Of a stretch of 64,000 bases of DNA, positions 3,105-59,423 are shown piece by piece. The stretch comes from a virus. Its lineage: Duplodnaviria > Heunggongvirae > Uroviricota > Caudoviricetes. The translations under genes were made by a program, and so were the position numbers. The notes beneath the pieces are model-generated. The model was not told the origin of the DNA. It was given only the letters and a program-made list of their open reading frames with translations, and made no database searches. Location: IMG/VR virus record IMGVR_UViG_2684622670_000009, positions 20,476 through 84,475 of that record. One strand, written 5' to 3'. Each line of letters opens with the position of its first letter. The first letter of the stretch is position 1.

Positions 3105-4148
3105 TTATCTAACGCTCGACGAGTGACTTGTGATAGCGCCGACTCCAAGCGCGTAATCAAAGAACAATCGTTGATGCATCGCCAGCCTACCGTGCGTCTT
3201 CTCCCAATTATCGCGGTCACGCTCAATATCACGCTGGCATGACTGGCACAGAGGAATTGCGTAAATGTCATGCGCGCATAATCGACTATGACGAACGATA
3301 TAAGGCGTAATGTGAGCGCCAGCTCCCGCCGCTCCACACCCACAGCATGGACGGGAAGCAACAAAGTCCATGTACTCAGGTAATTTTAGCGATTGCAGTT
3401 TTGGTATTTTGAAATGCGCCATGCCAGGGTCGGAGTCAACATCCACAGGGCATACTTTTGCACGCATCAGCGCGGCGCGTTCTTCCATCATCTGAACATA
3501 TGCTGTAGCGCGATCGTCATACGGGCGAATATCCGCCTCTTTCAGAGGTCCGCTATCCTGCGTTGCGGCTTTCATCTTATTTATTGATATACGGCAAACT
3601 TCTTCCGGCATCAGGTGCATCATGTTGCGCATGAAAGCCCACCAGCACAGTTCCTGAATACTTAAATCATGGCCATCTGAAAGCCCCATTTCCTGACGGG
3701 CGACATCCAGTATCCAGTTAACGCGATTATTATGCAGCGTTTCTTTCAGCTCATTAAAACCACGCATCCGGTAATGGTTATCGTGATGCCAGCACAACAA
3801 CACCGCGCTATTGTCTCGTTCTGCGTGGACAATATGGTTGTCACACCAGCTACGATCTGCGGCCTGGCATTGCCCCTCTTTCCTGCGCAACCACGCCAAC
3901 AGCGAGTCAATTCCACCAATACGGCGAAACAGTTCATCGCTGTTAAAAAACGGCTGCAACGCCTCATTTGTTGCCATGGTTTGCTCGGTAACAACGAGGC
4001 CGTCTTCCATGTGCTCGATTAACTCACGCGGCACCGGCTCCATAATAAATTTACGGCCAGCCTCCACCAGCTTTCTGACCTCCTGATCCACTTTGAACGT
4101 GGCGAGGCCAAGCTCTTTCTGTACAAAGGGAGTAATTACGGCTTTCAC
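3105..4148 (-). CDS. pdcB: Cys/His-rich protein at the P1 pdcB (post-doc) position
   Basis: 347-aa ORF with CCGCG and CQSC clusters. Assigned by synteny doc-pdcA-pdcB-lpa. Confidence 0.6.
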
Positions 4149-8098: not shown

Positions 8099-11000
8099 AT
8101 GACTCATCAAACACACACCATTGCTGAATCCAATAACTTTATCGTCCTTGATAAGTACATCAAAGCTGAGCAAACAAGCGACAGCTACCAGAGCGAATCG
8201 GACCTGGAACGTGAACTGATTCAGGACCTGCGGAATCAGGGTTATGAATTTATTTCCGTAAAATCACAGTCGGCAATGCTGTCCAATGTTCGGGAACAGC
8301 TTCAGAGCCTCAATGGTGTGATGTTTAATGACAGCGAGTGGCGGCGCTTCACGGAGCAGTATCTGGACAACCCGAGTGATGGTATTCTGGATAAAACCCG
8401 TAAAATCCATATCGACTATATTTGCGACTTTATTTTTGATGACGAGCGACTTGAGAACATCTATTTGATAGATAAAAAGAATCTCATGCGCAATAAGGTG
8501 CAGATTATCCAGCAGTTTGAACAGACGGGTTCTCACGCTAACCGTTATGACGTCACGATCCTGGTTAATGGCTTACCACTGGTGCAAATCGAACTGAAAA
8601 AACGCGGCGTGGCGATTCGTGAGGCTTTCAACCAGATACATCGTTACAGTAAAGAGAGTTTTAACAGCGAAAATTCCCTGTTTAAGTATCTGCAGCTGTT
8701 CGTCATTTCCAACGGCACTGATACCCGTTATTTTGCCAACACAACAAAGCGCGATAAAAACAGTTTTGACTTCACCATGAACTGGGCTAAATCAGACAAT
8801 ACACTGATTAAAGACCTCAAAGACTTTACCGCTACCTTTTTCCAGAAACATACTCTGCTTAATGTTCTGGTGAACTACAGCGTTTTTGACAGCAGTCAGA
8901 CGCTACTGGTAATGCGACCGTACCAGATTGCTGCCACCGAGCGCATTCTGTGGAAAATTAAGAGCTCCTTTACAGCGAAGAACTGGTCAAAACCGGAAAG
9001 CGGTGGGTATATCTGGCACACCACGGGTTCCGGTAAAACCCTGACCAGCTTTAAAGCCGCGCGTCTGGCAACAGAACTGGACTTTATTGATAAAGTTTTC
9101 TTTGTGGTCGACAGGAAAGACCTCGATTACCAGACCATGAAGGAATATCAGCGTTTTTCGCCAGACAGCGTCAACGGCTCGGAAAATACCGCAGGCCTTA
9201 AACGAAATCTGGATAAGGACGATAACAAAATTATCGTCACTACTATTCAGAAACTCAATAACCTGATGAAAGCAGAAAGCGACCTGCCTGTATATAATCA
9301 GCAAGTGGTGTTTATATTTGATGAATGCCACCGCAGCCAGTTTGGAGAAGCTCAGAAAAACCTGAAGAAGAAATTCAAACGCTATTATCAGTTTGGTTTT
9401 ACCGGCACCCCTATTTTCCCGGAAAACGCCTTAGGCTCAGAAACAACCGCCAGCGTATTTGGTCGTGAATTGCATTCGTATGTAATTACCGATGCGATTC
9501 GTGACGAAAAAGTGCTCAAATTCAAGGTGGACTACAACGATGTGCGGCCACAGTTTAAGTCTTTAGAGACAGAAACTGACGAGAAAAAACTGAGTGCGGC
9601 TGAAAATCAGCAGGCGTTTCTTCATCCCATGCGTATTCAGGAAATCACGCAATATATTCTGAATAATTTCCGCCAGAAAACCCATCGTACCTTCCCTGGC
9701 TCAAAAGGTTTTAATGCTATGTTGGCAGTGAGCAGCGTGGATGCCGCGAAAGCCTATTATGCGACGTTTAAACGGTTACAAGAAGAAGCCGCTAATAAAT
9801 CGGCTACCTATAAACCGCTGCGTATTGCGACAATCTTCTCCTTTGCCGCCAATGAAGAACAAAATGCCATTGGTGAAATTTCCGATGAAACTTTTGATAC
9901 CAGCGCAATGGACAGCAGTGCTAAAGAGTTTCTGGACGCTGCAATTCGTGAATATAACAGCCATTTTAAAACTAACTTTAGCACCGACAGTAACGGTTTT
10001 CAGAACTACTATCGTGATTTAGCCCAGCGGGTTAAAAATCAGGATATCGATCTGCTAATTGTCGTGGGGATGTTTTTAACCGGCTTCGATGCTCCAACAT
10101 TGAACACGCTATTCGTCGATAAAAACTTGCGTTTTCACGGCCTGATGCAGGCATTTTCCCGCACCAACCGTATTTATGATGCAACTAAAACCTTCGGTAA
10201 TATCGTCACTTTTCGGGATCTGGAACGCTCAACTATTGATGCCATAACGCTGTTTGGTGACAAAAACACCAAAAATGTGGTGTTAGAAAAGAGTTATACA
10301 GAGTATATGGAAGGCTTTACTGATGCTGCTACTGGTGAAGCTAAACGCGGCTTCATGACAGTAGTTTCAGAACTGGAACAACGGTTCCCTGACCCTACCA
10401 GTATTGAAAGTGAAAAAGAGAAGAAAGACTTCGTTAAACTGTTTGGCGAATACCTGCGTGCCGAGAACATCCTGCAAAACTATGATGAATTTGCCACGCT
10501 AAAAGCCCTGCAACAAATCGATCTTAGCGATCCTGTTGCGGTAGAAAAATTCAAAGCAGAACATTATGTGGATGATGAAAAGTTCGCTGAATTGCAAACA
10601 ATTCGTCTCCCTGCTGATCGCAAGATTCAGGATTATCGTTCTGCCTATAACGATATTCGCGACTGGCAGCGCCGTGAGAAAGAAGCTGAGAAAAAAGAGA
10701 AATCAACCACTGACTGGGATGACGTAGTTTTTGAGGTCGATTTGCTGAAGTCTCAGGAAATAAACCTGGATTATATCCTTGGACTGATTTTCGAACACAA
10801 CAGACAAAATAAAGGCAAGGGCGAAATGATCGAAGAGGTCAAACGCTTAATTCGTTCAAGCCTAGGGAACCGTGCTAAAGAGGGCCTGGTGGTCGATTTT
10901 ATTCAGCAAACGAACCTGGATGATTTACCGGACAAAGCCAGCATCATTGACGCATTCTTTACGTTTGCTCAACGCGAACAGCAACGTGAAGCAGAAGCAT

Positions 11001-11215
11001 TGATAAAAGAAGAAAATCTCAATGAAGAGGCAGCAAAACGCTATATTCGCACGTCTTTAAAACGCGAATATGCCACCGAAAATGGCACAGAATTAAACGA
11101 AACATTACCAAAACTTAGTCCGTTAAATCCGCAATATAAAACGAAAAAACAGGCAGTTTTCCAGAAAATCGTCTCGTTTATTGAGAAGTTTAAAGGCGTA
11201 GGCGGAAAAATATAG
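8099..11215 (+). CDS. hsdR: Type IC restriction endonuclease/translocase subunit HsdR
   Basis: 1038 aa. Contains a PD-(D/E)xK region, helicase motifs ([15 protein letters not shown]) and the EcoR124-like length. Confidence 0.95.
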
Positions 11216-11294
11216 CCCAATTCGTGTTTTTCTTGCGGGTTCTTAATTAAACCCGCAAGAGACCGTGGGGTTCCAAATGGCTAATATACTCCCC

Positions 11295-11381
11295 TTACCC
11301 ATGCGCGACAATGCTGCCAAAAGTGATAGAAAACAGCCAGAAATAGATCGCGGCCATAATGATTTTGAATGCCGTGTTCAT
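11295..11381 (-). CDS. 28-codon hydrophobic ORF (hypothetical small membrane peptide)
   Basis: MNTAFKIIMAAIYFWLFSITFGSIVAHG. AGGAG lies 8 nt upstream of the ATG. Below the ORF-track size cut-off; no homolog recognised. Confidence 0.3.
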   Translation of the reverse strand: MNTAFKIIMAAIYFWLFSITFGSIVAHG

Positions 11382-11409
11382 ATCTTCAGCTCCTGTGATT
11401 GATTGGATA

Positions 11410-11443
11410 CATGCCGCGCCCCTTGCGGCATGTTTTTATTTTT
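11410..11443 (+). terminator. Rho-independent terminator (probably the real hsdR terminator)
   Basis: 8-bp stem CATGCCGC/GCGGCATG followed by TTTTTATTTTT. Confidence 0.7.
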
Positions 11444-11465
11444 ACCTTCTCTGCTTTAAATATCA

Positions 11466-11482
11466 AGATTTATTAGAGCAAT
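11466..11482 (-). promoter_or_regulatory. C1 operator at the pap 3' end
   Basis: Minus strand ATTGCTCTAATAAATCT (16/17 to consensus). Overlaps the pap stop codon. Confidence 0.65.
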
Positions 11483-46972: not shown

Positions 46973-47773
46973 TTAGCGCGTTGCCGCGACAGGTACCAGC
47001 ACACCAGCATCAAGCAATCGCTTCATCAGCCACTGCTGACCTTTGCCGGTTATACGAGTCGTGAAAGAAATCCTGCTTCCATTGCTTGTATCGATCACGG
47101 TTTCTTTGAGAGTGAAATACCCACGGGATATGTATTCTTGTTTGGGAACGTTCCTGCGTTCACCAGTTGCGATCAGAATTCCGTTATCACGCAACCAGGT
47201 GAAGAGATAGTTTTGGCCCAGGCCGAGAACTTTGGCATAGTTGCCGATTAGAACCCCGCTGGCGGTAGCAACGCGTTCGGCGAATTCGACTTTAGGAGCA
47301 TCCATAAGCATTTTTTGCTCCAGCCGTTGCTTTTGCTCTGCCAGGTCGGCAGCCAAACGGAGAGCTTCAGGGAGACTCTGCGGAATAGCAGGTTGTAATC
47401 TTCCGGCTCGATAGTCGATAAATGTCTGGTTTACCTTCAGCCGAAACGCGGGAGAAATCCAGCCTGCGTACTCCACAGCGAGCAATTCATGGGCAAAAGT
47501 GCCGCCGCCACGGCCCTCGAACGAAACTATGCAATTCTGCATCGTTTCTTTTTCAAGCTCTTCAATGAGCTGTTTGGCTGATTGCGTTCTTAGCCATTGA
47601 GCTGGCGCTTTATGGGCACCGAGTCCGCTCGCTCTGTGTAGAGCATTAAGGTTGTAACGGCCAGCGCGGTCGGTCGTAATTTCAACACCACAAATAACAG
47701 GCAGAGTGGTTGAAGGATCGACATTTTGATGAAGGTTTGATATATTCATATCCGCATTGAATGTTTGTTGCAT
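46973..47773 (-). CDS. kilA: KilA (KilA-N domain plus ANT/KilAC C-terminal domain)
   Basis: 266 aa. KilA-N pattern GRYNLNALHRASGLGAHKAPAQWLR. The C-terminal half is homologous to the Ant C-terminus. Confidence 0.85.
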   Translation of the reverse strand: MQQTFNADMNISNLHQNVDPSTTLPVICGVEITTDRAGRYNLNALHRASGLGAHKAPAQWLRTQSAKQLIEELEKETMQNCIVSFEGRGGGTFAHELLAVEYAGWISPAFRLKVNQTFIDYRAGRLQPAIPQSLPEALRLAADLAEQKQRLEQKMLMDAPKVEFAERVATASGVLIGNYAKVLGLGQNYLFTWLRDNGILIATGERRNVPKQEYISRGYFTLKETVIDTSNGSRISFTTRITGKGQQWLMKRLLDAGVLVPVAATR

Positions 47774-48411: not shown

Positions 48412-49461
48412 TTAAGACAAGGACGCCACTGGTTTTAACAAACCAGCATCAAGTAGCTTGCGAGTTAACCACTGCTGGCCTTTACCCGTTAATTGGGGCG
48501 TCAGCCGTATCTGGTAGCCATTTTCATCATCCAGCCCCACTTCTTTCACCGTGAAATACCCGGCGTTGATGTACTGTTGGCGCGGTACGTTTTTGCGCGC
48601 ACCAAAAGCCATGAGAATGCCGTTCTGGCGCAACCATGAGAAAAGGGCGTTTTGCTTAAGTCCAACGACCTTTGCAAAGTTCCCGATCAGGATTCCATTG
48701 GCCACTGATACCCGGTCGGCAAAATCGACTTTAGGGGCTGCGGCCACCAGCTGTTGTTCCAACTGCATTTTCTGTTCTGCTAACTCGGCAGCCAGGCGTA
48801 GGGCTTCTGGTAATGTCTGGGGGATCGATGGGGTAGGGGAGTTTGCCTGCTGTAATTCTTCCAGTTTGTCGATCAGCGAACGGCGGACCGCTTTCGATTC
48901 GCGAGCAGCAACGCGCAGGGCTTGTTTGTATGTCATTACTATAACTACCTGATCCGCTCCACCTTTTTTCTTATCCATAGGGGTTACGAAGATTTCGTAA
49001 CCCTCCCCATCAAGCTCATCCTTAACTCTGGCAATGAAATCATTGTTGCGAACTGGTTTTTCGCTACATAATTTCCGTGCCTCATTGACCATCTTTAACA
49101 GTGTCAGGCTGTCGATTGTGTCTCCGGTGTTGGGGATAATATTCACGGCTGGTGCTGGCGTAGCTGACGTAACAGGTGCTGGTTTTTCAACATTCAAATT
49201 ATTACCGGTCATTCTATGTGCCTCCTTTCTCATTTCTGCTGCCACTGTTGCGTAACGTAGACGTCCTTGTTCAATCAAATAATCCCTGATCTCGGCTATC
49301 AGTAGCCTGTTGATCACAGCCTTATCTGTTCGGGTATAAAAACGCCTGGTTATCATGAAATAGTTAGCAATTGCGCTGGGGATCTCCCGTGTCGGCATAC
49401 AGGCAGTATGCAGGGCGATCGCTTCGGCTATGTCATTACGGGTGACGAGAGGTTTTTTCAT
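48412..49461 (-). CDS. ant1: Antirepressor Ant1 (Ant2 from an internal in-frame start)
   Basis: 349 aa immediately after icd. The C-terminal ANT/KilAC domain PQTLPEALRLAAELAEQK...FADRVSVANGILIGNFAKV is present. Confidence 0.85.
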   Translation of the reverse strand: MKKPLVTRNDIAEAIALHTACMPTREIPSAIANYFMITRRFYTRTDKAVINRLLIAEIRDYLIEQGRLRYATVAAEMRKEAHRMTGNNLNVEKPAPVTSATPAPAVNIIPNTGDTIDSLTLLKMVNEARKLCSEKPVRNNDFIARVKDELDGEGYEIFVTPMDKKKGGADQVVIVMTYKQALRVAARESKAVRRSLIDKLEELQQANSPTPSIPQTLPEALRLAAELAEQKMQLEQQLVAAAPKVDFADRVSVANGILIGNFAKVVGLKQNALFSWLRQNGILMAFGARKNVPRQQYINAGYFTVKEVGLDDENGYQIRLTPQLTGKGQQWLTRKLLDAGLLKPVASLS

Positions 49462-49679: not shown

Positions 49680-49729
49680 AGTTACGGCCTCATTCGTAGG
49701 TTTAACAACCTGCGCCCCGCTGCTAAACG

Positions 49730-49806
49730 GGTGGCAGGACGTGACGGGGTTAGCAGACTGGCACGAATGAAACCAGCAGGCCGAAGCCTCCCCATCACGC
49801 CCCACC
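49730..49806 (-). ncRNA. c4: c4 antisense repressor RNA (immI)
   Basis: 10-bp closing stem CGTGATGGGG/CCCCGTCACG and an AGGC-TTCG-GCCT hairpin. The loops carry CATTCGT and CTGCTAA. These are complementary to the direct repeats GTTTAGCAG...ACGAATG found both upstream (~49872-49900) and downstream (~49685-49730). Confidence 0.6.
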
Positions 49807-49993
49807 ATAATTCGGGCGTAACGTGGTTTTACGGACACAAAAATACCGCAATATCGGATATCTGCGGTTGTCCGCATTCGTATTCAGGCTGCTAAACCCG
49901 GTCGCAGAATTTGCTACGACGGCGGAACTATAAGCCTGAACGATTAAAAGGTCAATATGATGCGAAAAGATAGCATTCGCGACTTAAAAATAC

Positions 49994-50010: not shown

Positions 50011-50092
50011 AATTGTATGATAAATACACAAATGGATCTAATAACCTCTTTTTTTAAAGGCGAAAATATGTACCCTAAATGGGTTATCCGGT

Positions 50093-51430
50093 GCGCCTTA
50101 TATCCCCGTCCTTCAGGGCGGGGATATAAGGCGCGGTTTTCCACCTAACTGTTTTTGTTTAAAATAGTGGGATGAAACGACTACAAGCATTTAAATTCCA
50201 GTTAAGACCAGATGGTCAACAGGAGCGTCAAATGAGGCGCTTTGCCGGTGCTTGTCGTTTCGTTTTCAACCGTGCTCTGGCGCTTCAGAATGAGAATCAT
50301 GAGGCCGGTAAAAAATACATCCCTTACACGAAAATGGCTTCCTGGCTGGTTGAATGGAAAAATGCTACTGAAACGCAATGGCTTAAAGATTCGCCATCAC
50401 AGTCATTGCAGCAGTCACTGAAAGACCTTGAGCGGGCTTACAAAAACTTTTTCCAGAATCGGGCTGCTTTTCCCCGATTCAAAAAGCGGGGACAGAATGA
50501 TGCATTCCGCTACCCGCAGGGCGTTAAGCTCGATCAGGAAAACAGCCGTATTTTTCTGCCGAAACTTGGCTGGATGCGCTACCGGAATAGCCGTCAGGTC
50601 ACGGGTGTTGTGAAAAATGTCACTGTCAGCCAGTCCTGCGGTAAGTGGTACATCAGTATTCAGACAGAAAGAGAGGTATCCGCTCCTGTTCACCCTTCTG
50701 CATCAATGGTCGGACTGGATGCTGGTGTGGCTAAACTCGCCACGCTGTCAGATGGCACAGTCTTTGAACCTGTAAATAGTTTTCAGAAAAACCAGAAGAA
50801 GCTGGCGAGACTTCAGCGACAGTTAAGCCGCAAGGTCAAATTCAGCAACAACTGGCAGAAGCAGAAACGCAAAATACAGCGACTGCATTTTCGTATCGCA
50901 AATATCCGCAGAGACTACCTTCATAAAGTCACAACGATCATCAGCAAAAACCACGCAATGATTGTCATTGAGGATTTGAAGGTTAAAAACATGGCAAAGT
51001 CAGCAGCGGGTACGGTCAGCCAGCCGGGGCGCAATGTCTGGACAAAATCAGGTTTAAACCGTTCGATACTGGATCAGGGCTGGTATGAAATGCGCCGCCA
51101 GCTTGAGTATAAGCAGCTCTGGCATGGCGGTCAGGTACTGGCAGTGCCGCCAGCGTACACAAGCCAGCGTTGCGCGTGCTGTGGTCATACCGCGAAAGAA
51201 AATCGCCTGTCACAAAGTAAATTCAGATGCCAGGTATGTGGATATACAGCGAACGCCGATGTAAATGGCGCTCGTAACATTTTAGCGGCGGGGCACGCCG
51301 TTCTTGCCTGTGGAGGGATGGTGCAGTCAGGCCGCCCGTTGAAGCAGGAACCAACCGAAATGATTCAGGCGATAGCCTGAACGTAGCAGGAATCCACGCC
51401 CGTCAGGGTGCGGAGGATGTCAAAAGGCAG
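50093..51430 (+). mobile_element. IS200/IS605-family element remnant carrying only tnpB (ends approximate)
   Basis: Perfect 15-bp stem hairpin GCGCCTTATATCCCC/GGGGATATAAGGCGC (50093-50134) upstream of tnpB. An imperfect hairpin (CACGCCC-GTCA-GGGTGCG) lies about 30 nt after the stop. No tnpA is present. Confidence 0.6.
50172..51380 (+). CDS. tnpB: TnpB (RuvC-like RNA-guided nuclease, OrfB zinc ribbon)
   Basis: 402 aa. [13 protein letters not shown]...GLDAGV (RuvC-I), [10 protein letters not shown] (RuvC-II), CACCGH...[18 protein letters not shown] (Zn ribbon plus RuvC-III). Confidence 0.9.
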
Positions 51431-51441
51431 GTGAGGTTATA

Positions 51442-51933
51442 ATGAGAAAACTATTACTACCGTTATTATTTATGGCTGGGACTGTTAATGCAGCATCAAG
51501 TGTAAAGGAGATTTGTACCGATTATACGAAATACCTTGGGCACGTTTACGGCTTTGCTGTCAGTCAAGACGAATCCATGCGCAAGAAGTTACTGTCAGAT
51601 ATGAAACGCCTTAAACTTTCTGAAGCGATGGTGCAGCAAGAACTGTATAAAGTCGCAACCAACGAAAATGCTAAATATCAATATTCTCGCCTATTAAACC
51701 CCGATGCAAACGAGATTAATCGAAACTCTTTCGATTATATGGTAAAGGCATGCGAAACCGCTCCTGATTTTGCTATTCCTAGCTGGGGCGTGCTGGTGGC
51801 GAGCAATGCCGTTAATAAAGAAGATATTGGAAGAAATGGCATTGACTCAATCAGAAATGCCCCTGGAATGCGCCATCAAAACGTTCAGGGTACGCTTGAA
51901 GAGCGGGCCAGGGGACCGGGTGTAGCTCCATAA
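51442..51933 (+). CDS. Secreted 163-aa protein with a Sit-like C-terminal motif
   Basis: Signal peptide MRKLLLPLLFMAGTVNAA. The C-terminus GIDSIRNAPGMRHQNVQGTLEERARGPG resembles two Sit segments. Confidence 0.6.
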   Translation: MRKLLLPLLFMAGTVNAASSVKEICTDYTKYLGHVYGFAVSQDESMRKKLLSDMKRLKLSEAMVQQELYKVATNENAKYQYSRLLNPDANEINRNSFDYMVKACETAPDFAIPSWGVLVASNAVNKEDIGRNGIDSIRNAPGMRHQNVQGTLEERARGPGVAP

Positions 51934-52021
51934 TTTAATGAATAATATTAAATTCTCTGGGCATAGTGGATCTAACAATATGGATTATGCCTATAATATC
52001 TAAAATAAAAAGGATAAAAAT

Positions 52022-52528
52022 ATGAAATTATATAAGTCATTGTATATCTTTTTATTAATGTCCTCTTTTCTGCCATTATCAGCAATGGCAGGTTCTATCG
52101 TTTGGACGGTAGGAGGTGAGCAAGGGTGGAGAGAAATCTCTGCAACCAATGACGATGGTTACACAATTAACTTTTCTTGTGATGCTGGAGCAAGGGAAGG
52201 TTCCGAAGATCATATCGCTGGAAGAAATTTGTATGTAAGCGGAGGAAAAGAGAATGTCGATTTTTCTACACGCGACACAATCTCACGTAAAGCAGATGTA
52301 ATTACTTTAATTGTTGGTCAGGATAGTTTTAATATTGGCACGCAAAACACTGCTCCAAATCGTAGGGAATGGTATTCTTTTTGGAAGTCAGCGTCAGCCA
52401 CAAAAGAAAAAAACATGGATGTATATATCGGATCGCATCGAATTACATCATTCTCTCTTGATGGAATTTCAAGTATTTACAAGGAAGCTAAAAATGATGG
52501 ATGTTTAAAGCAAGATGACGGTGAATAA
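52022..52528 (+). CDS. Secreted 168-aa protein (unknown)
   Basis: Signal peptide MKLYKSLYIFLLMSSFLPLSAMA. AT-rich codons; two Cys residues. Confidence 0.55.
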   Translation: MKLYKSLYIFLLMSSFLPLSAMAGSIVWTVGGEQGWREISATNDDGYTINFSCDAGAREGSEDHIAGRNLYVSGGKENVDFSTRDTISRKADVITLIVGQDSFNIGTQNTAPNRREWYSFWKSASATKEKNMDVYIGSHRITSFSLDGISSIYKEAKNDGCLKQDDGE

Positions 52529-53699
52529 AGTGAAGGATATTAAAAAACTTGCACTTGGCTCAGTAAGCGATCTCTATAATAGAGATTCAAATATTACTTG
52601 GCGTGATAACTTAAGTAAAATCAAAATGCCAGGATATACATCGGCAAGTGATTTATTAAAATCAGAATATGCTTCTAATAATTTGGTTAGACAGTTGGCA
52701 CAACTGCAAAAAAACGCAATCATTCCATCGTATAAAGAACATATGGCAATCTTGCACAGACAGTTAAGAATATCGCGCCATGCTCAAGAACAACTTGCAA
52801 AGTTGAGTACACAAGCCTTAATTAGTGATTCTATTCTAAAACAGTTTTCGCATAGACCGAATTTGGCAGAAATAGGCAACGAGTATCGTAAACATATTGA
52901 TATTTTACAGAAACAGGCTCTGGCTTTTTTCCCGCGTGATGCCAATAAATACATTCAAATGCTAAGGAAACAGGCAGAAATTGCTATGCCGTTACGAAAC
53001 CAGTTCGAGATGCTTAATAAGCAAGCTGGTTTAAATAACATGCAGGCGATGTTTAATGAATTAAGACAACATGTAAATTATAAGACAGATTTAAATAATG
53101 GAATAGCACTATTATTAAAACAATATACTCTGGCAAAAGGTTCTCCATTGCATCAAGTAATGGAGCAAGGTCTTTCATCTTTTGCACAGGCTTATGCTGA
53201 AGGTGCTACTGAAACATCACACACGAAAAGTAATGTTCAAAACAAAGGATTAAATAAATATAGCTCAAAGTTTGTTGATTCATTTAAAGAGCTTCCTTAT
53301 CCACTGCAATGGTTACTAATGGTTATATTTTCTCAGGTTGTGTTTGGTGCTTTTATTGATTACGGAAAAGAGAAAACCTTGCTGGGAATACACAAGGCAG
53401 AATCATATGTTATATCGCTGTTTGAGGATAAACCAATATCAAAACAACAAATAATTAAAGAAAACAAAGAAATTAGTTGGGATGATCTCAATGGTTTTCG
53501 TTTTATAACTGGTGAGAACGTAAGATTACACGTCAGTCCTTCTATAAATAGTGAGGTTATTGAATGCATTGGCAAAAATACTATAGTGGCTGTTTTAGAT
53601 AAAAAAGATCGCCAATGGCTTTTCGTGCAGGTTAAATCAGGGGACGAGTTTATTACTGGATGGATTACACGAACATACACAAAGCCTCTTAAGGCTTGA
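52515..53699 (+). CDS. 394-aa membrane-anchored protein with helical Q/K-rich repeats and a C-terminal SH3b domain
   Basis: Overlaps the previous stop by 14 nt. TM segment LQWLLMVIFSQVVFGAFIDYG. C-terminus VRLHVSPSINSEVIECIGKNTIVAVLDKKDRQWLFVQVKSGDEFITGWI is typical of bacterial SH3. Confidence 0.6.
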   Translation: MTVNKVKDIKKLALGSVSDLYNRDSNITWRDNLSKIKMPGYTSASDLLKSEYASNNLVRQLAQLQKNAIIPSYKEHMAILHRQLRISRHAQEQLAKLSTQALISDSILKQFSHRPNLAEIGNEYRKHIDILQKQALAFFPRDANKYIQMLRKQAEIAMPLRNQFEMLNKQAGLNNMQAMFNELRQHVNYKTDLNNGIALLLKQYTLAKGSPLHQVMEQGLSSFAQAYAEGATETSHTKSNVQNKGLNKYSSKFVDSFKELPYPLQWLLMVIFSQVVFGAFIDYGKEKTLLGIHKAESYVISLFEDKPISKQQIIKENKEISWDDLNGFRFITGENVRLHVSPSINSEVIECIGKNTIVAVLDKKDRQWLFVQVKSGDEFITGWITRTYTKPLKA

Positions 53700-53798: not shown

Positions 53799-53821
53799 TA
53801 ACAAATGACAACTCGTAGAAT
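53799..53821 (+). promoter_or_regulatory. Late promoter of the tail operon
   Basis: TAACAAATGACAACTCGTAGAAT; same core as the sites at 17266 and 38847. Confidence 0.5.
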
Positions 53822-56018: not shown

Positions 56019-59000
56019 ATGGAAAGAAAAAACGCCAACATTGACGATGTTATAAGGACAGTTGAAACCGCCAGCGCAAAAGAGCTGGAAGAGCTTGCAG
56101 GTATCCGGGAAGCTGTTGAAGATTTGAAAGGGGGGCGCGTTGCAACTGTTGATCCTGTCTCTCGCAGTGTGTCGGCATTAAATCGCACAATCGAAAATTC
56201 CCGGCCTGACTTTGTGGCCAAAGCGCCATCCGTAGACCCTATTGTTGACGCAATGAAACGGCTTAATTTAGGGGACGTTTCTCGTGTAGTTCAGGAAGAT
56301 GTTGCTCAACAGGAACAGCAGGCCAAATCAACCACACCAAAGGGTAAAAAACGACGCAGGAAGGCTATACCAGAGGATGTAAAGGCACAACGGACCGAAG
56401 CAGCCGAACACGCTCGCGAAATGTTCGGTCAAAAAGGCGGTGCGCAAAAAAGCCAAAACCAACGCGATGCGCGTGGTCGTTTTATTGGAAAGTCAGGGAG
56501 TAAGTCCGCAGCGGAAGATGCCCGTGCTGAACGTGCTGAAAAGGCCAGGCGCAAAGAGGATGATGAGCGTCTAAATGCTGAATCAGGTTTATTAAAAAAA
56601 CTGTCAAAAGTAGCTGAAGGCATAGGTAACCCTTCAGAGACTCGTGCCGTCGATGCGTTAGGTTATGCCGTTGCTGGTCCATTGTGGGCAGCAGGGAAGG
56701 AGCTTGGCGGGATATCAAAAGAAGTTGGTGGATCGCTTAATGGTGCCAGAAAGTCTATTGCCGATGTGATTCGTGGCAATGACGATAACAGCCGTAGAAA
56801 AGGTTTTTTTAGGCGTAAATCGCAAAATAGTGCCGATGTCGTTCAGGTTAACACCCAAAAACGGACGGTTCAGGAACTTCAGGAGCAGACCAGCGAAATT
56901 AAAGAGGGCAATGACAAGATTCTCAGCGCCCTTGATCAAATAGCCAAAAACACCGGGAAAAAGAAGGGCGGCTTGCTGTCCAAACTATTTAGCCTGTTAG
57001 GGAAGGGGGCCGGTGGCGTCGCGTCGTTGTTAATGGGGCGTGGCATGCTGAAAAAAGCTGGAGCACTCGCTTTTGGCGCTCTGGGGGCAAAGAAACTTGT
57101 AGGAATGCTACGCGGTGGTGGCAAGAAAACTCTCACCCATGAAGGCGGAGATTTGGCTGCCCGGGCAGCAGGTAAACTTGGATTAAAGGTAGTTGGTAAA
57201 GGGGCGTTACGCGCAATTCCCCTAGTCGGCACAGTGGCTGGAGGTATTTATGATGCGGTAACCGGTTGGAATGATACAGAAGCGCAACGTCGAGCGTTTG
57301 GGCTTAAATCAGGACAAGATCCATCATTCCAGCAAAAAGCCGCTTATACGTTAGCCAATGTTCTTGATTTGGGAGGACTGGTATCTGGTATTAGCAATGT
57401 CATTGGTAGCGTTCTCAAATCACTTGGATTTGAGGATATCGGCAATATGTTGCAATCATTTTCGACGGAAAGTATTGCACAGGCCATTGATAGTGGAATT
57501 ACCAATTTAGAAACATATATTTCTAACCTTGGTGATACTATATCCACGACATTTAGTGATTATACCGCAAAGATTGGTGATGCTATTTCAGGATGGTTCA
57601 GTGACACAACAAAGAACTTGAACGAAAAATTAGACGCCATCAAAAACTTCTTTACTGTCGATAACCTGAAACAGGTTTTTAGTGATGCAATTGATAGTGC
57701 AATTGATTTCATTAAGAACCCAAGGAAACACATTAAAGAGGCTGGCAGTAATCTATGGAGTGCCGCAAAAGAGCTTTCAGGTGAGATTGCAGATGCTGCT
57801 GTTCAGAGCACTCCTGTGGCCTGGGTTGCATCAAAGCTAGTCAATAAAGCGGATGCGAAAGAGGTTACACCTGAATTAAAAATACCTGCTAAAGAACGTC
57901 AGGAGGGCAATGCTCCTAAGACTGAATATATCCCTAAAAAGGCTAATATTGTCACTCGTGTTGTAAATGCATCCCTGGATACGGCGAAAGATAGCAATAA
58001 AACAGTTAAAGAAACTGCCAATCAGATAATCAATGCAAATGCTGTAGAAACGGGCAATAGCGCGTTGCAGAAAATTGATAAAGCTATTGGTCAAAATAGC
58101 TCGTCATCATCCTCGCTTAATACCACTGGCACCAGGAATGACATTCAGAAAGCTGCGGATACCTACAATAATGGCAACTTGGATGTAAAAGTCGGAAGTC
58201 TTGGAGCTGAAGGTAAGGCAAATCTCGATAAGTTGGCTCCGTATTTTGCTGAACTAGAGAATAAATATGGCCTTCCTGAAGGTACTCTTTACGCGATCGC
58301 TGCAACTGAATCTGGTGGTGATCCTAACGCAAAATCTACGCTTACAAGATCACCAAATGGAAAGCTAAGTGGTGGCGCTCTCGGAATGTTCCAGTTTACG
58401 AGCGTTGCTCGTGAGGAAACTGGATTATCCCGGGAAGATTCTTTTAATCCGGAAAAATCGGCAGAAGCTGCGGCTCTTCTCATGAGCAAGTATCTGAAGC
58501 AAGCCAATGGAGACTTAAACGAGGCCATCACTGCATATAACGCTGGGTTTGGCACTATCAATAAGTGGAAAAAAGGCACAGGTGACTTATCGAAAGAAAA
58601 CCGTGAGTACGCGATCAAGGTCAATACTCATCGTGCTCGCTATTTAGGTGGTGAAATCTATACACCTGGAGCAGGAGCACAGGGTGGGGCGCAATATGGA
58701 GTGAGGGGACCACTGCCTGATAACGCTGTTATCGATCAGTCTACTGGCCTAGCGTTTACCCCTGGTGATAGCCCGTTTGAGAAAGGCGGTCTGGTAGACA
58801 AAATCGGCAATGCTGTTGGCGTTAACGATCTGGTCAACAAATTCATGAATGGCCGGGGTATGCGTCGGGAAGTCGTTCAGGGAACGCTCGAAGAACGTGC
58901 ACGAGGGAAGGGGACCGCAACAGCAGCTGGCAATGTGTATGTTGATACTCCGATGCCAGTTGAAGAGGCGCGTCCGGTGGCCAGCAACTCAAGTTACTTT

Positions 59001-59423
59001 GACCAGCTCGGCGCACAAATGGGGATTGATGGGCTATTCGATAAACTCCGCAATGCGCCGGGGATGCGGAAAAGTAATGCGCCTGAACCAGCCACTACGT
59101 CCCAGGTGACGACTGCCGCCAACGATTTGCAGCAACCAACTGGTCGTATGCAGATAGATGGGCAGGTTATTAGTGACCTTGGCGGCTCCGGTGCCAAGCC
59201 GACAATGCAGTTGGCTGATAATACCGTTTCACTTGATGGTGAAACGAAGCGGCTGTTTGCGCAGATGACCTCATTGCTTGCCAGGATTGAAGAGCACACT
59301 AAAGACTCGGCGAAAGGCCAGGGAACTGTCGTAAAGGTCAGCACGCCTCAACCGGGCGTTATGCGCACGGTGCCACTGTCAATTGATGATCCGTTGATGA
59401 ATGACTACGCGAGAGTTGATTGA
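56019..59423 (+). CDS. sit: Tape-measure-like protein with a lytic transglycosylase domain (Sit)
   Basis: 1134 aa. SLT motif AIAATESGGDPNAKS...GALGMFQF. Long helical and Gly-rich regions. Confidence 0.85.
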   Translation: MERKNANIDDVIRTVETASAKELEELAGIREAVEDLKGGRVATVDPVSRSVSALNRTIENSRPDFVAKAPSVDPIVDAMKRLNLGDVSRVVQEDVAQQEQQAKSTTPKGKKRRRKAIPEDVKAQRTEAAEHAREMFGQKGGAQKSQNQRDARGRFIGKSGSKSAAEDARAERAEKARRKEDDERLNAESGLLKKLSKVAEGIGNPSETRAVDALGYAVAGPLWAAGKELGGISKEVGGSLNGARKSIADVIRGNDDNSRRKGFFRRKSQNSADVVQVNTQKRTVQELQEQTSEIKEGNDKILSALDQIAKNTGKKKGGLLSKLFSLLGKGAGGVASLLMGRGMLKKAGALAFGALGAKKLVGMLRGGGKKTLTHEGGDLAARAAGKLGLKVVGKGALRAIPLVGTVAGGIYDAVTGWNDTEAQRRAFGLKSGQDPSFQQKAAYTLANVLDLGGLVSGISNVIGSVLKSLGFEDIGNMLQSFSTESIAQAIDSGITNLETYISNLGDTISTTFSDYTAKIGDAISGWFSDTTKNLNEKLDAIKNFFTVDNLKQVFSDAIDSAIDFIKNPRKHIKEAGSNLWSAAKELSGEIADAAVQSTPVAWVASKLVNKADAKEVTPELKIPAKERQEGNAPKTEYIPKKANIVTRVVNASLDTAKDSNKTVKETANQIINANAVETGNSALQKIDKAIGQNSSSSSSLNTTGTRNDIQKAADTYNNGNLDVKVGSLGAEGKANLDKLAPYFAELENKYGLPEGTLYAIAATESGGDPNAKSTLTRSPNGKLSGGALGMFQFTSVAREETGLSREDSFNPEKSAEAAALLMSKYLKQANGDLNEAITAYNAGFGTINKWKKGTGDLSKENREYAIKVNTHRARYLGGEIYTPGAGAQGGAQYGVRGPLPDNAVIDQSTGLAFTPGDSPFEKGGLVDKIGNAVGVNDLVNKFMNGRGMRREVVQGTLEERARGKGTATAAGNVYVDTPMPVEEARPVASNSSYFDQLGAQMGIDGLFDKLRNAPGMRKSNAPEPATTSQVTTAANDLQQPTGRMQIDGQVISDLGGSGAKPTMQLADNTVSLDGETKRLFAQMTSLLARIEEHTKDSAKGQGTVVKVSTPQPGVMRTVPLSIDDPLMNDYARVD

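What the first reader, a model, noticed from the sequence alone, without database searches (positions are those of the whole stretch)
51442..53699. AT-rich three-gene envelope cassette occupying the sim (superimmunity) position next to immI
In P1 the simCBA genes lie upstream of c4, as I recall. Here that slot holds a tnpB element followed, on the opposite strand, by three genes that are visibly more AT-rich than the flanks. The first two encode signal-peptide proteins (163 and 168 aa). The third encodes a 394-aa protein with Q/K-rich helical repeats, one TM helix and a C-terminal SH3b domain. Its start overlaps the stop of the 168-aa gene by 14 nt. None matches a family I can name beyond SH3b. 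The location (an immunity/exclusion hotspot), the predicted envelope localisation and the foreign composition make it a candidate uncharacterised superinfection-exclusion or abortive-infection module.
Basis: partly seen in the sequence, partly recalled or inferred. Interest (0 to 1): 0.7.

Follow-up and report, generated by a model that had tools for sequence, protein, structure and literature searches.

The report
Alternative sim-locus allele of P1-like phage-plasmids
The three AT-rich genes are real and sit exactly where phage P1 keeps its superimmunity (sim) genes, but they are a common, uncharacterised alternative version of that locus: a full-length SimA whose tail copies a motif of the phage's own injection protein, a YfjT/YkfB-family periplasmic protein, and a separately mobile membrane-anchored SH3 protein.

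Summary
Three same-strand ORFs (163, 168 and 394 aa; GC 0.44, 0.38, 0.35 against 0.47 for the window) lie between the C4/icd/ant immunity region and pmgC-tub-pmgB-sit. This is the slot that holds simA-simB-simC in P1.

Two details in the finding are wrong:
- tnpB is on the same strand as the cassette, not the opposite one.
- Two of the proteins do belong to named families. Gene 1 is full-length SimA; P1's 52-aa SimA is its truncated N-terminus. Gene 2 is a YfjT/YkfB-family protein (hhalign 99.3% to K-12 YfjT).

The unit is not an obligate three-gene system. Genes 1 and 2 form the commonest sim-slot allele (177 PLSDB plasmids, against 141 with SimC). Gene 3 is present in 64 plasmids and occurs alone elsewhere in Citrobacter, Salmonella and Yersinia elements.

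New here: SimA's disordered C-terminal tail carries a conserved motif (NAPGMRHQ-VQGTLEERARG). In this window the motif is shared only with the C-terminal region of Sit, the tape-measure/transglycosylase.

No defence-system model, solved structure or paper assigns a function. The best reading is a prophage-expressed envelope module that blocks entry of P1-like phages, possibly by Sit mimicry. This is inferred, not shown.

The parts
49727..49812 (-). C4 antisense RNA of the immI region (context marker). Its a1/b1 targets lie at 49881-49933.
   Evidence: Rfam RF01695, 71.9 bits (gathering score 45); RF03163, 56.2 bits.
50088..51423 (+). A 1336-bp tnpB-only IS200/IS605-family element. It is inserted without target duplication 3' of TTAT, between the predicted PsimA promoter (about 50015-50041 by homology to P1) and the ribosome-binding site of gene 1.
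   Evidence: The IS-less plasmid L002 is contiguous across positions 4000/4001. The ends and flanks were read. Pfam hits for the 402-aa ORF at 50172-51380: OrfB_IS605 2.1e-33, Cas12f1-like TNB 2.2e-24, HTH_OrfB 6.9e-16.
51442..51933 (+). Gene 1: full-length SimA-family protein (163 aa). It has a signal peptide (aa 1-17), a helical domain (aa 18-125, with Cys25 and Cys104) and a disordered tail (aa 130-163).
   Evidence: P1 SimA alignment. phrog_3933, 1.9e-113. 29 homologue clusters, where contig length is informative on contigs of about 90-100 kb. Alignments A2 and A5. AF2 mean pLDDT 81, above 90 for aa 21-120 and about 50 for the tail.
51856..51924 (+). Sit-like short linear motif in the gene 1 tail: NAPGMRHQNVQGTLEERARGPGV (aa 139-161).
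   Evidence: BLASTP of gene 1 aa 122-162 against Sit aa 931-967: 51% identity, E 6e-8. phrog_2533 (Sit family) positions 935-963, E 4.8e-5. N139 and R144 are invariant and G142, M143, Q146 nearly invariant in the family. Nucleotide identity is 45/69, with only 10/23 at third positions.
52022..52528 (+). Gene 2: YfjT/YkfB-family periplasmic protein (168 aa). It has a signal peptide and a beta-rich domain with two helices. W28, G35, C53, W117 and C161 are conserved.
   Evidence: hhalign of A3 against K-12 YfjT: probability 99.3%, E 1.2e-20. PGAP product name in relatives. phrog_3429, 4.6e-70. AF2 pLDDT 86, pTM 0.79. 177 plasmids carry a family member.
52515..53699 (+). Gene 3: single-pass membrane protein (394 aa; 389 aa from the GTG at 52530). 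It has a variable repeat-rich N-terminal domain, a TM segment at about aa 262-285 (nt 53298-53369), and a conserved juxtamembrane region plus SH3b domain at aa 335-388 (nt 53517-53678).
   Evidence: phrog_7086, 1.4e-184. 48 homologue clusters. dN/dS.
53803..53821 (+). Position of the P1 late promoter LPsit, by homology. It marks the right-hand boundary of the exchangeable cassette.
   Evidence: P1 annotation: L001 5436-5454. Window 53800 corresponds to L001 5433.
58848..58916 (+). Sit motif 1: NGRGMRREVVQGTLEERARGKGT (Sit aa 944-966), downstream of the SLT domain. This is the counterpart of the gene 1 tail motif.
   Evidence: SLT domain at about aa 750-900 according to PMC9024508.
59052..59069 (+). 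Sit motif 2: NAPGMR (within GIDGLFDKLRNAPGMRKSNA). This is the second copy of the GMR core shared with gene 1.
   Evidence: BLASTP of gene 1 aa 129-148 against Sit aa 1001-1021: 52% identity, E 0.002. Regex scan of the whole window finds the motif only in gene 1 and Sit.

Best explanation
The region is an alternative allele of the P1 sim (superimmunity) locus, made of two separable units.

Unit 1 is genes 1 and 2. Gene 1 encodes full-length SimA, a secreted helical domain with a flexible tail. Gene 2 encodes a secreted YfjT/YkfB-family protein. This pair is the commonest content of the sim slot in P1-like phage-plasmids. P1's own simA is a 52-aa stump left when simB-simC replaced everything after codon 47.

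Unit 2 is gene 3. It encodes an inner-membrane protein, probably with a variable repeat domain in the cytoplasm and a nearly invariant SH3b domain in the periplasm. It is an add-on that also exists as a lone gene in other elements.

Proposed mechanism (inferred). The prophage expresses these proteins into the envelope of the lysogen, where they stop related phages after adsorption and before DNA reaches the cytoplasm, as reported for P1 Sim. The SimA tail copies a conserved motif from the C-terminal, post-transglycosylase part of Sit. If Sit is ejected into the periplasm during infection, as its annotated name 'injection transglycosylase' suggests, the tail could act as a decoy or competitor for whatever that motif binds. 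Candidates are gene 2's product, a host factor, or Sit itself. Gene 3's SH3b domain would hold its protein at the peptidoglycan/inner-membrane interface.

Shown: locus identity, family memberships, allele structure, predicted localisation signals, motif sharing and its conservation. Inferred: expression in lysogens, exclusion activity, the decoy mechanism, and the topology of gene 3.
For: Position:
- The slot is bounded by C4/Op51 on one side and LPsit/pmgC on the other, identical to simABC in P1.
- P1 Sim is described as preventing superinfecting phages from injecting DNA into the cytoplasm (PMC8546580, citing Devlin 1982 and Kliem & Dreiseikelmann 1989). In the P1 record, SimC is annotated 'superimmunity'.

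Gene 1 is SimA.

Allele classes:
- Among 68 IMG/VR loci, 24 are simA-stump+simB+simC, 24 are SimA(215 aa)+gene 2 homologue, 12 are SimA(163 aa)+gene 2+gene 3, 6 are other SimA+gene 2-family combinations, 1 is SimA+SimC-like, and 1 (L040) has gene 1 only with nothing recognised after it.
- In PLSDB, 141 plasmids carry SimC, 177 a gene 2-family gene and 64 gene 3.

Motif:
- E 6e-8 against the element's own Sit. It is the only such pair in 64 kb.
- The core N-[AS]-[PR]-G-M-R-x-Q is conserved in a tail that AF2 predicts to be disordered.
- The core is kept in both proteins in lineages whose Sit is only about 50% identical. Salmonella-type Sit has SAPGMRHQVVQGTLAERAYG and its SimA has NAPGMRHQ.
- Third codon positions have diverged, so the similarity is kept at the protein level.

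Other points:
- Both small proteins have signal peptides, and each has a conserved Cys pair.
- Gene 3 and its homologues are under purifying selection.
- In Citrobacter and Salmonella elements, gene 3 homologues are lone genes transcribed against the flanking phage operons, the usual layout of lysogen-expressed morons.
Against: - There is no homology to SimC, the only Sim protein with a demonstrated exclusion role, or to SimB.
- PADLOC gives no hit.
- Variants of the Sit motif do not co-vary with the sim allele class, so there is no arms-race signature.
- Mean dN/dS is below 1 everywhere.
- The IS separates gene 1 from its predicted promoter, so expression in this particular element is uncertain.
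- To my knowledge, P1 sim exclusion was seen from multicopy clones. That weakens the argument from position alone.
- YfjT/YkfB relatives in K-12 cryptic prophages have no known phage-related phenotype.
Confidence: 0.4

Rival explanations
1. Lysogenic-conversion cargo unrelated to phage exclusion. The secreted and membrane proteins would change an envelope property of the host (stress tolerance, adhesion, colonisation, resistance to colicins or serum). They would sit in the sim slot only because it is a recombination hotspot that tolerates foreign DNA.
For: - The sim region is one of eight highly variable, low-GC regions of P1-like phage-plasmids that take up foreign genes (PMC9603915).
- Gene 2's family (YfjT/YkfB) is found in K-12 cryptic prophages with no assigned function.
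- The only viral structural relative of gene 2 is labelled 'putative adhesin'.
- Gene 3 homologues sit in unrelated contexts.
Against: - Gene 1 is restricted to P1-like elements; where contig length is informative its homologues lie on contigs of about 90-100 kb. It shares a conserved motif with the phage's own Sit protein, which is hard to explain by a host-directed function.
- The gene 1 and gene 3 families were seen almost only on phage-plasmid-sized contigs of Enterobacteriaceae.
Confidence: 0.2
2. Gene 3 is a stand-alone defence protein of the abortive-infection type, or one that acts on heterologous phages. Its variable cytoplasmic repeat domain would sense a phage product, and the membrane anchor would collapse membrane integrity. 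Genes 1 and 2 would be functionally unrelated neighbours.
For: - Gene 3 homologues occur alone, including on a complete plasmid without genes 1 and 2.
- The N-terminal domain varies in repeat number and sequence, while the C-terminal 110 aa are nearly invariant.
- N-terminal dN/dS is 0.43-0.83, against 0.0-0.34 for the C-terminal part.
Against: - No effector domain was found, there is only a single TM segment, and PADLOC gives no hit.
- dN/dS never exceeds 1.
- A periplasmic SH3b domain points to a cell-wall or periplasmic target rather than a cytoplasmic sensor.
Confidence: 0.15
3. The proteins serve the phage's own lytic cycle rather than exclusion. For example, they could modulate cell-wall digestion at lysis, or prevent newly released virions from wasting ejection on lysing cells or debris. 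The Sit-like tail would reflect use of a common partner.
For: - The cassette lies directly upstream of the late tail operon pmgC-tub-pmgB-sit, on the same strand.
- There is motif sharing with Sit.
- SH3b domains are common in phage cell-wall enzymes; phrog_1794 (amidase) gives a weak hit, E 0.014.
Against: - The late promoter LPsit lies downstream of the cassette.
- simA, simB and simC are non-essential for P1 plaque formation under CRISPRi (PMC10695390).
- The slot content is freely exchanged between otherwise near-identical phages.
- No catalytic domain is present.
Confidence: 0.1

Closest known systems
P1 simABC (superimmunity locus; SimC is the processed periplasmic exclusion protein)
   Same: - The chromosomal slot and orientation are identical, between c4/Op51 and LPsit/pmgC.
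- The first about 45 residues of gene 1 match P1 SimA.
- The products carry signal peptides.
- The composition is low-GC.
   Different: - Genes 2 and 3 have no detectable similarity to SimB or SimC.
- Gene 1 is three times longer than P1 SimA and carries a domain and a Sit-like tail that P1 lacks.
- No phenotype is known.
Prophage superinfection-exclusion proteins that act on the tape-measure protein at the inner membrane (HK97 gp15; lactococcal phage TP-J34 Ltp). Recalled from the literature, not tested here.
   Same: These are prophage-encoded envelope proteins proposed to block DNA entry after adsorption by interfering with the ejected tape-measure protein. That is what the Sit-like motif suggests here.
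   Different: No sequence or fold similarity was found. Mimicry of a tape-measure motif by a secreted protein has not, to my knowledge, been described for those systems.
E. coli K-12 YfjT (CP4-57) and YkfB (CP4-6) cryptic-prophage proteins
   Same: Gene 2 is a family member: hhalign 99.3% probability, the same length class, a signal peptide and a conserved Trp.
   Different: In K-12 the neighbour is the lipoprotein YfjS, not a SimA homologue. The family has no known function.
Bacterial SH3b (PF08239) cell-wall-binding domains of endolysins and NlpC/P60 hydrolases
   Same: The C-terminal domain of gene 3 matches SH3_3 in all 25 homologues.
   Different: Here the domain is fused to a TM anchor and a repeat-rich non-enzymatic N-terminal region. 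No hydrolase domain is present.

Membership tests
P1 sim (superimmunity) locus | Location between the c4 promoter/Op51 operator and the late promoter LPsit/pmgC, transcribed toward pmgC | tested here: met
   Alignment to P1 and to IS-less plasmids. C4 RNA found by Rfam.
P1 sim (superimmunity) locus | Presence of a SimC homologue (the exclusion protein) | tested here: not met
   BLASTP of genes 1, 2 and 3 against SimC finds nothing at E <= 1. SimC is present in 141 other plasmids.
P1 sim (superimmunity) locus | Presence of a SimB homologue | tested here: not met
   No BLASTP match.
P1 sim (superimmunity) locus | Exclusion of superinfecting P1 after adsorption and before DNA entry | not testable with these tools
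   Needs EOP, adsorption and DNA-entry assays.
SimA-domain protein family (phrog_3933) | Signal peptide plus the conserved CTDYxKYLGH...LSEAMV...IPSW core | tested here: met
   phrog_3933, 1.9e-113. Invariant columns in A2 and A5. NCBI product name 'simA domain protein' in relatives.
YfjT/YkfB family phage-associated protein | Profile similarity to K-12 YfjT over most of its length, with a signal peptide | tested here: met
   hhalign probability 99.3%, E 1.2e-20, 129 columns. BLASTP E 3e-6. PGAP name on a 97%-identical protein.
Bacterial SH3 domain (Pfam PF08239 SH3_3) | Score at or above Pfam's gathering cut-off (27 bits) | tested here: inconclusive
   The window protein scores 25.5 bits, E 1.6e-5. 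All 25 homologues match SH3_3, best E 2.3e-9. Precomputed PF08239 hits are listed for most of the homologue clusters.
Known anti-phage defence systems (PADLOC-DB v2) | Any component model matched | tested here: not met
   No hits at E <= 1 for any of the three proteins.
PTP-like phytase (PF14566), for gene 1 | Gathering score, the alpha/beta PTP fold and a CX5R catalytic loop | tested here: not met
   26 bits, below the 27-bit cut-off, and only a partial profile match. The model is all-helical. Neither Cys is followed by R at +6 (sequence).
Periplasmic lysozyme/transglycosylase inhibitors (Ivy, MliC/PliC, PliG), for gene 2 | Fold similarity to a solved inhibitor | tested here: not met
IS200/IS605-family tnpB element | TnpB domains, hairpin ends, insertion 3' of a short target without duplication | tested here: met
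   Pfam OrfB_IS605, TNB and HTH hits. Clean 1336-bp insertion after TTAT, with palindromic ends. No tnpA was seen in the ORF list.

The most novel reading that the evidence does not exclude
Full-length SimA is a periplasmic molecular mimic of the tape-measure/injection protein Sit. Its disordered tail presents the conserved GMR-x-Q(-VQGTLEERARG) motif that Sit uses after ejection, and so poisons DNA entry of any P1-like phage. If this is right, the ancestral sim mechanism is decoy-based, P1's textbook simA is a relic, and the Sit motif marks the still-unknown contact that P1 needs to cross the periplasm.
Probability: 0.2. Interest if true: 0.7.

Novelty: new variant of a known kind. Interest (0 to 1): 0.45.

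Why it matters
P1 is a workhorse phage, and P1-like phage-plasmids spread resistance genes. Yet how its sim locus blocks superinfection has not been resolved since about 1990, and how P1 DNA crosses the periplasm is unknown.

This analysis makes three points. The P1 reference carries the minority, rearranged form of the locus. Most relatives carry a full-length SimA plus a YfjT/YkfB-type partner. SimA shares a selected linear motif with Sit. Together these give a concrete hypothesis that mutagenesis can test. They would also give a first functional handle on the YfjT/YkfB y-ome family. If no exclusion phenotype exists, the result is ordinary: a recombination hotspot filled with envelope morons.

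Tried and rejected
- PADLOC and NCBIfam gave no hits for the three proteins.
- Profile searches of all three families against PDB sequences found nothing significant.
- Foldseek against BFVD found one relative of gene 2, labelled 'putative adhesin', with no functional information.
- AFDB50 was unavailable.
- The PTP-like phytase hit of gene 1 was rejected: it is below cut-off, the fold is wrong and there is no CX5R.
- phmmer hits of gene 2 to 2200-3300-aa proteins turned out to be PKD-repeat proteins, so they are treated as repeat-inflated noise.
- Gene 1 was tested against YfjS (the neighbour of YfjT in K-12) and shows no similarity.
- I looked for co-variation between Sit motif variants and sim allele class and found none.
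- I looked for positive selection in gene 3. Mean dN/dS is below 1.
- Literature searches found no functional study of this allele, of YfjT/YkfB, or of the Sit C-terminal region.
- The P1 genome paper (PMC523184) is not held.
Full report
**What is there**

The window is a P1-like phage-plasmid. On the - strand lie kilA (46973-47773), ant1/2 (48412-49461), the icd region and C4 RNA (49727-49812; Rfam 71.9 bits). On the + strand follow, in order:
- a tnpB ORF (50172-51380);
- the three ORFs of the finding (51442-51933, 52022-52528, 52515-53699);
- pmgC, tub, pmgB and sit (56019-59423).

The three ORFs have GC of 0.437, 0.377 and 0.348, against 0.468 for the window. tnpB, however, is on the same strand as the cassette, not the opposite one.

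**Locus identity**

I aligned the window to P1 (NC_005856) and to an IS-less plasmid (NZ_AP027490). This shows that the cassette fills exactly the simA-simB-simC slot.
- Similarity to P1 stops at window 51581, which is codon 47 of gene 1.
- It resumes at 53800, 3 nt before P1's annotated late promoter LPsit.

The tnpB element spans 50088-51423 (1336 bp). It has no tnpA and no target duplication, carries hairpin ends, and is inserted 3' of TTAT. It lies between P1's predicted PsimA promoter and the ribosome-binding site of gene 1.

**Gene 1 is SimA**

Residues 1-45 match residues 10-45 of P1's 52-aa SimA. Homologues (29 clusters, named 'simA domain protein' by NCBI) lie, where contig length is informative, on contigs of about 90-100 kb from Escherichia, Salmonella and Klebsiella. 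The family has three parts:
- a signal peptide;
- a conserved domain of about 110 aa with two Cys;
- a conserved N-[AS]-[PR]-G-M-R-x-Q element followed by variable tails.

AF2 models the domain as a confident helical bundle (pLDDT above 90 for aa 21-120) and the tail as disordered. P1's simA is therefore a truncated remnant of this gene.

**The Sit-like motif**

The tail (aa 122-162) aligns to Sit aa 931-967 of the same element with 51% identity and E 6e-8. Its core aligns again to Sit aa 1001-1021. The Sit PHROG also picks it up, at E 4.8e-5. A regex scan finds the motif nowhere else in the 64 kb.

At the DNA level 45 of 69 bases match, but only 10 of 23 third positions do. The similarity is therefore maintained at the protein level and is not a recent copy.

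The core is retained in both proteins across divergent lineages. Salmonella-type elements, whose Sit is about 50% identical, have SAPGMRHQVVQGTLAERAYG in Sit and NAPGMRHQ in SimA.

Sit is the P1 tape-measure protein. It has an SLT transglycosylase domain at about aa 750-900 (PMC9024508), and the motifs lie just after that domain. Variants of the Sit motif do not track the sim allele class.

**Gene 2**

PGAP labels a 97%-identical protein 'YfjT/YkfB family phage-associated protein'. A profile of the family matches K-12 YfjT (CP4-57 prophage) with probability 99.3% and E 1.2e-20. The family is small: 19 representative clusters by exhaustive phmmer. It conserves W28, G35, C53, W117 and C161.

**Gene 3**

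There are 48 homologue clusters, all from Enterobacteriaceae. The N-terminal roughly 255 aa vary widely in sequence and in the number of short helical repeats. The TM segment, the juxtamembrane stretch and the SH3b domain are nearly invariant.
- SH3_3 scores 25.5 bits (cut-off 27) in the window protein, but all 25 aligned homologues hit it.
- dN/dS is 0.43-0.83 for the N-terminal part and 0.0-0.34 for the C-terminal part.
- With no signal peptide, an N-in/C-out topology (SH3b in the periplasm) is most likely. The flanking charges do not decide it.

**Allele structure**

The 68 IMG/VR loci recovered with the SimA profile fall into these groups:

| Slot content | Loci |
|---|---|
| simA-stump + simB + simC | 24 |
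| SimA (215 aa) + 158-aa gene 2 homologue | 24 |
| SimA (163 aa) + gene 2 + gene 3 | 12 |
| Other SimA + gene 2-family combinations | 6 |
| SimA + SimC-like protein | 1 |
| SimA only, nothing recognised downstream (L040) | 1 |

In PLSDB, SimC is in 141 plasmids, a gene 2-family gene in 177, and gene 3 in 64. The 163-aa SimA of this window is the 215-aa form cut at codon 160, where the gene 2+gene 3 segment begins. Published work already lists the sim region as one of eight highly variable, low-GC regions of P1-like phage-plasmids (PMC9603915). simA, simB and simC are dispensable for plaque formation (PMC10695390).

**Gene 3 is separable**

- In Citrobacter and Salmonella elements, the homologue is a lone gene transcribed against its neighbours, near a DarB-like gene.
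- In a Yersinia contig, it follows umuDC-like genes.
- The complete Citrobacter plasmid NZ_CP056338.1 carries it but has no homologue of gene 1 or gene 2.

The 'three-gene cassette' is therefore a SimA/YfjT-like pair plus an independent membrane-SH3b gene.

**Interpretation**

What is known of P1 Sim is a block to DNA injection by superinfecting phage (PMC8546580, citing Devlin 1982 and Kliem & Dreiseikelmann 1989). Taken together with the position, the predicted envelope localisation and the Sit-like motif, the most likely role is prophage-encoded exclusion of P1-like phages at the periplasmic stage, with the SimA tail acting as a decoy for a Sit interaction.

None of this is demonstrated. 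There is no SimC homologue, no PADLOC hit and no informative fold match. In this element, the IS separates gene 1 from its predicted promoter. Rivals are host-directed lysogenic conversion, a stand-alone abortive-infection role for gene 3, and a role in the phage's own lytic cycle.

**Verdict**

This is a real, common and uncharacterised alternative allele of a known locus, so I class it as a new variant of a known kind. The SimA-Sit motif is the one new and testable lead. Interest is moderate (0.45).

Noticed in passing
window 50088-51423; also L009 8664-9999 and L050 1-958: The same tnpB-only IS200/IS605 element sits at the same TTAT site in front of different sim alleles: this window (genes 2+3 allele), L009 (same allele, tnpB 94% identical, with a 17-bp deletion so that the IS end supplies a GGAGGA Shine-Dalgarno for gene 1), and L050 (simABC allele, tnpB 99% identical). 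Only 2 of about 292 PLSDB P1-like plasmids have it. If TnpB uses the flanking sequence as its guide, as in described IS605 systems, it would cut IS-less P1 relatives at TTAT|AAGGCAGGTGAGG. That would amount to RNA-guided homing or exclusion at the sim locus.
   Followed up: partly
window 51307-51350 (+): A weak Rfam match to RAGATH-18 (28.1 bits, gathering score 44.9, E 0.033) lies at the 3' end of tnpB, where a TnpB guide (omega) RNA scaffold would be expected. It is below threshold.
   Followed up: no
L043 (IMGVR_UViG_2695420521_000002) 9974-11500: One P1-like element combines a long SimA (221 aa, with a Cys-hairpin tail) directly with a SimC-like protein (260 aa, 32% identical to P1 SimC) and has no SimB. 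SimC-family genes can therefore also follow full-length SimA.
   Followed up: no
L080 (NZ_CP056338.1) 18137-18469: A distant Citrobacter P1-like plasmid has a SimB homologue (42% identity) next to its icd-like and KilA-N genes, but no SimA, SimC or gene 2. The SimB family is thus also mobile between contexts.
   Followed up: no
window 58848-59069 (Sit aa 944-1018) and Sit proteins in L006-L073: Sit carries two copies of the GMR core. The second copy exists in two allelic forms (FDKLRN[AS]PGMRK[NS]NAPEP and YDKLINARGMRSNNSPQP) that assort independently of the sim allele. Sit length also varies (1044-1263 aa among full-length ORFs).
   Followed up: partly
window 46973-47773 and 48412-49461 (-): kilA and ant share an internal segment of about 270 bp at about 67% identity (the KilA-C/Ant C-terminal domain). 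It shows up as a cross-match in every alignment to P1-like loci.
   Followed up: no
SimA family alignment A2, columns 200-289: SimA tails are modular. Some carry the Sit-like VQGTLEERARG extension. Others carry one or two copies of a Cys-x(about 30)-Cys helical hairpin module (FKxC...AxxxC). A few E. coli variants look frameshifted (P0056, P0064).
   Followed up: no
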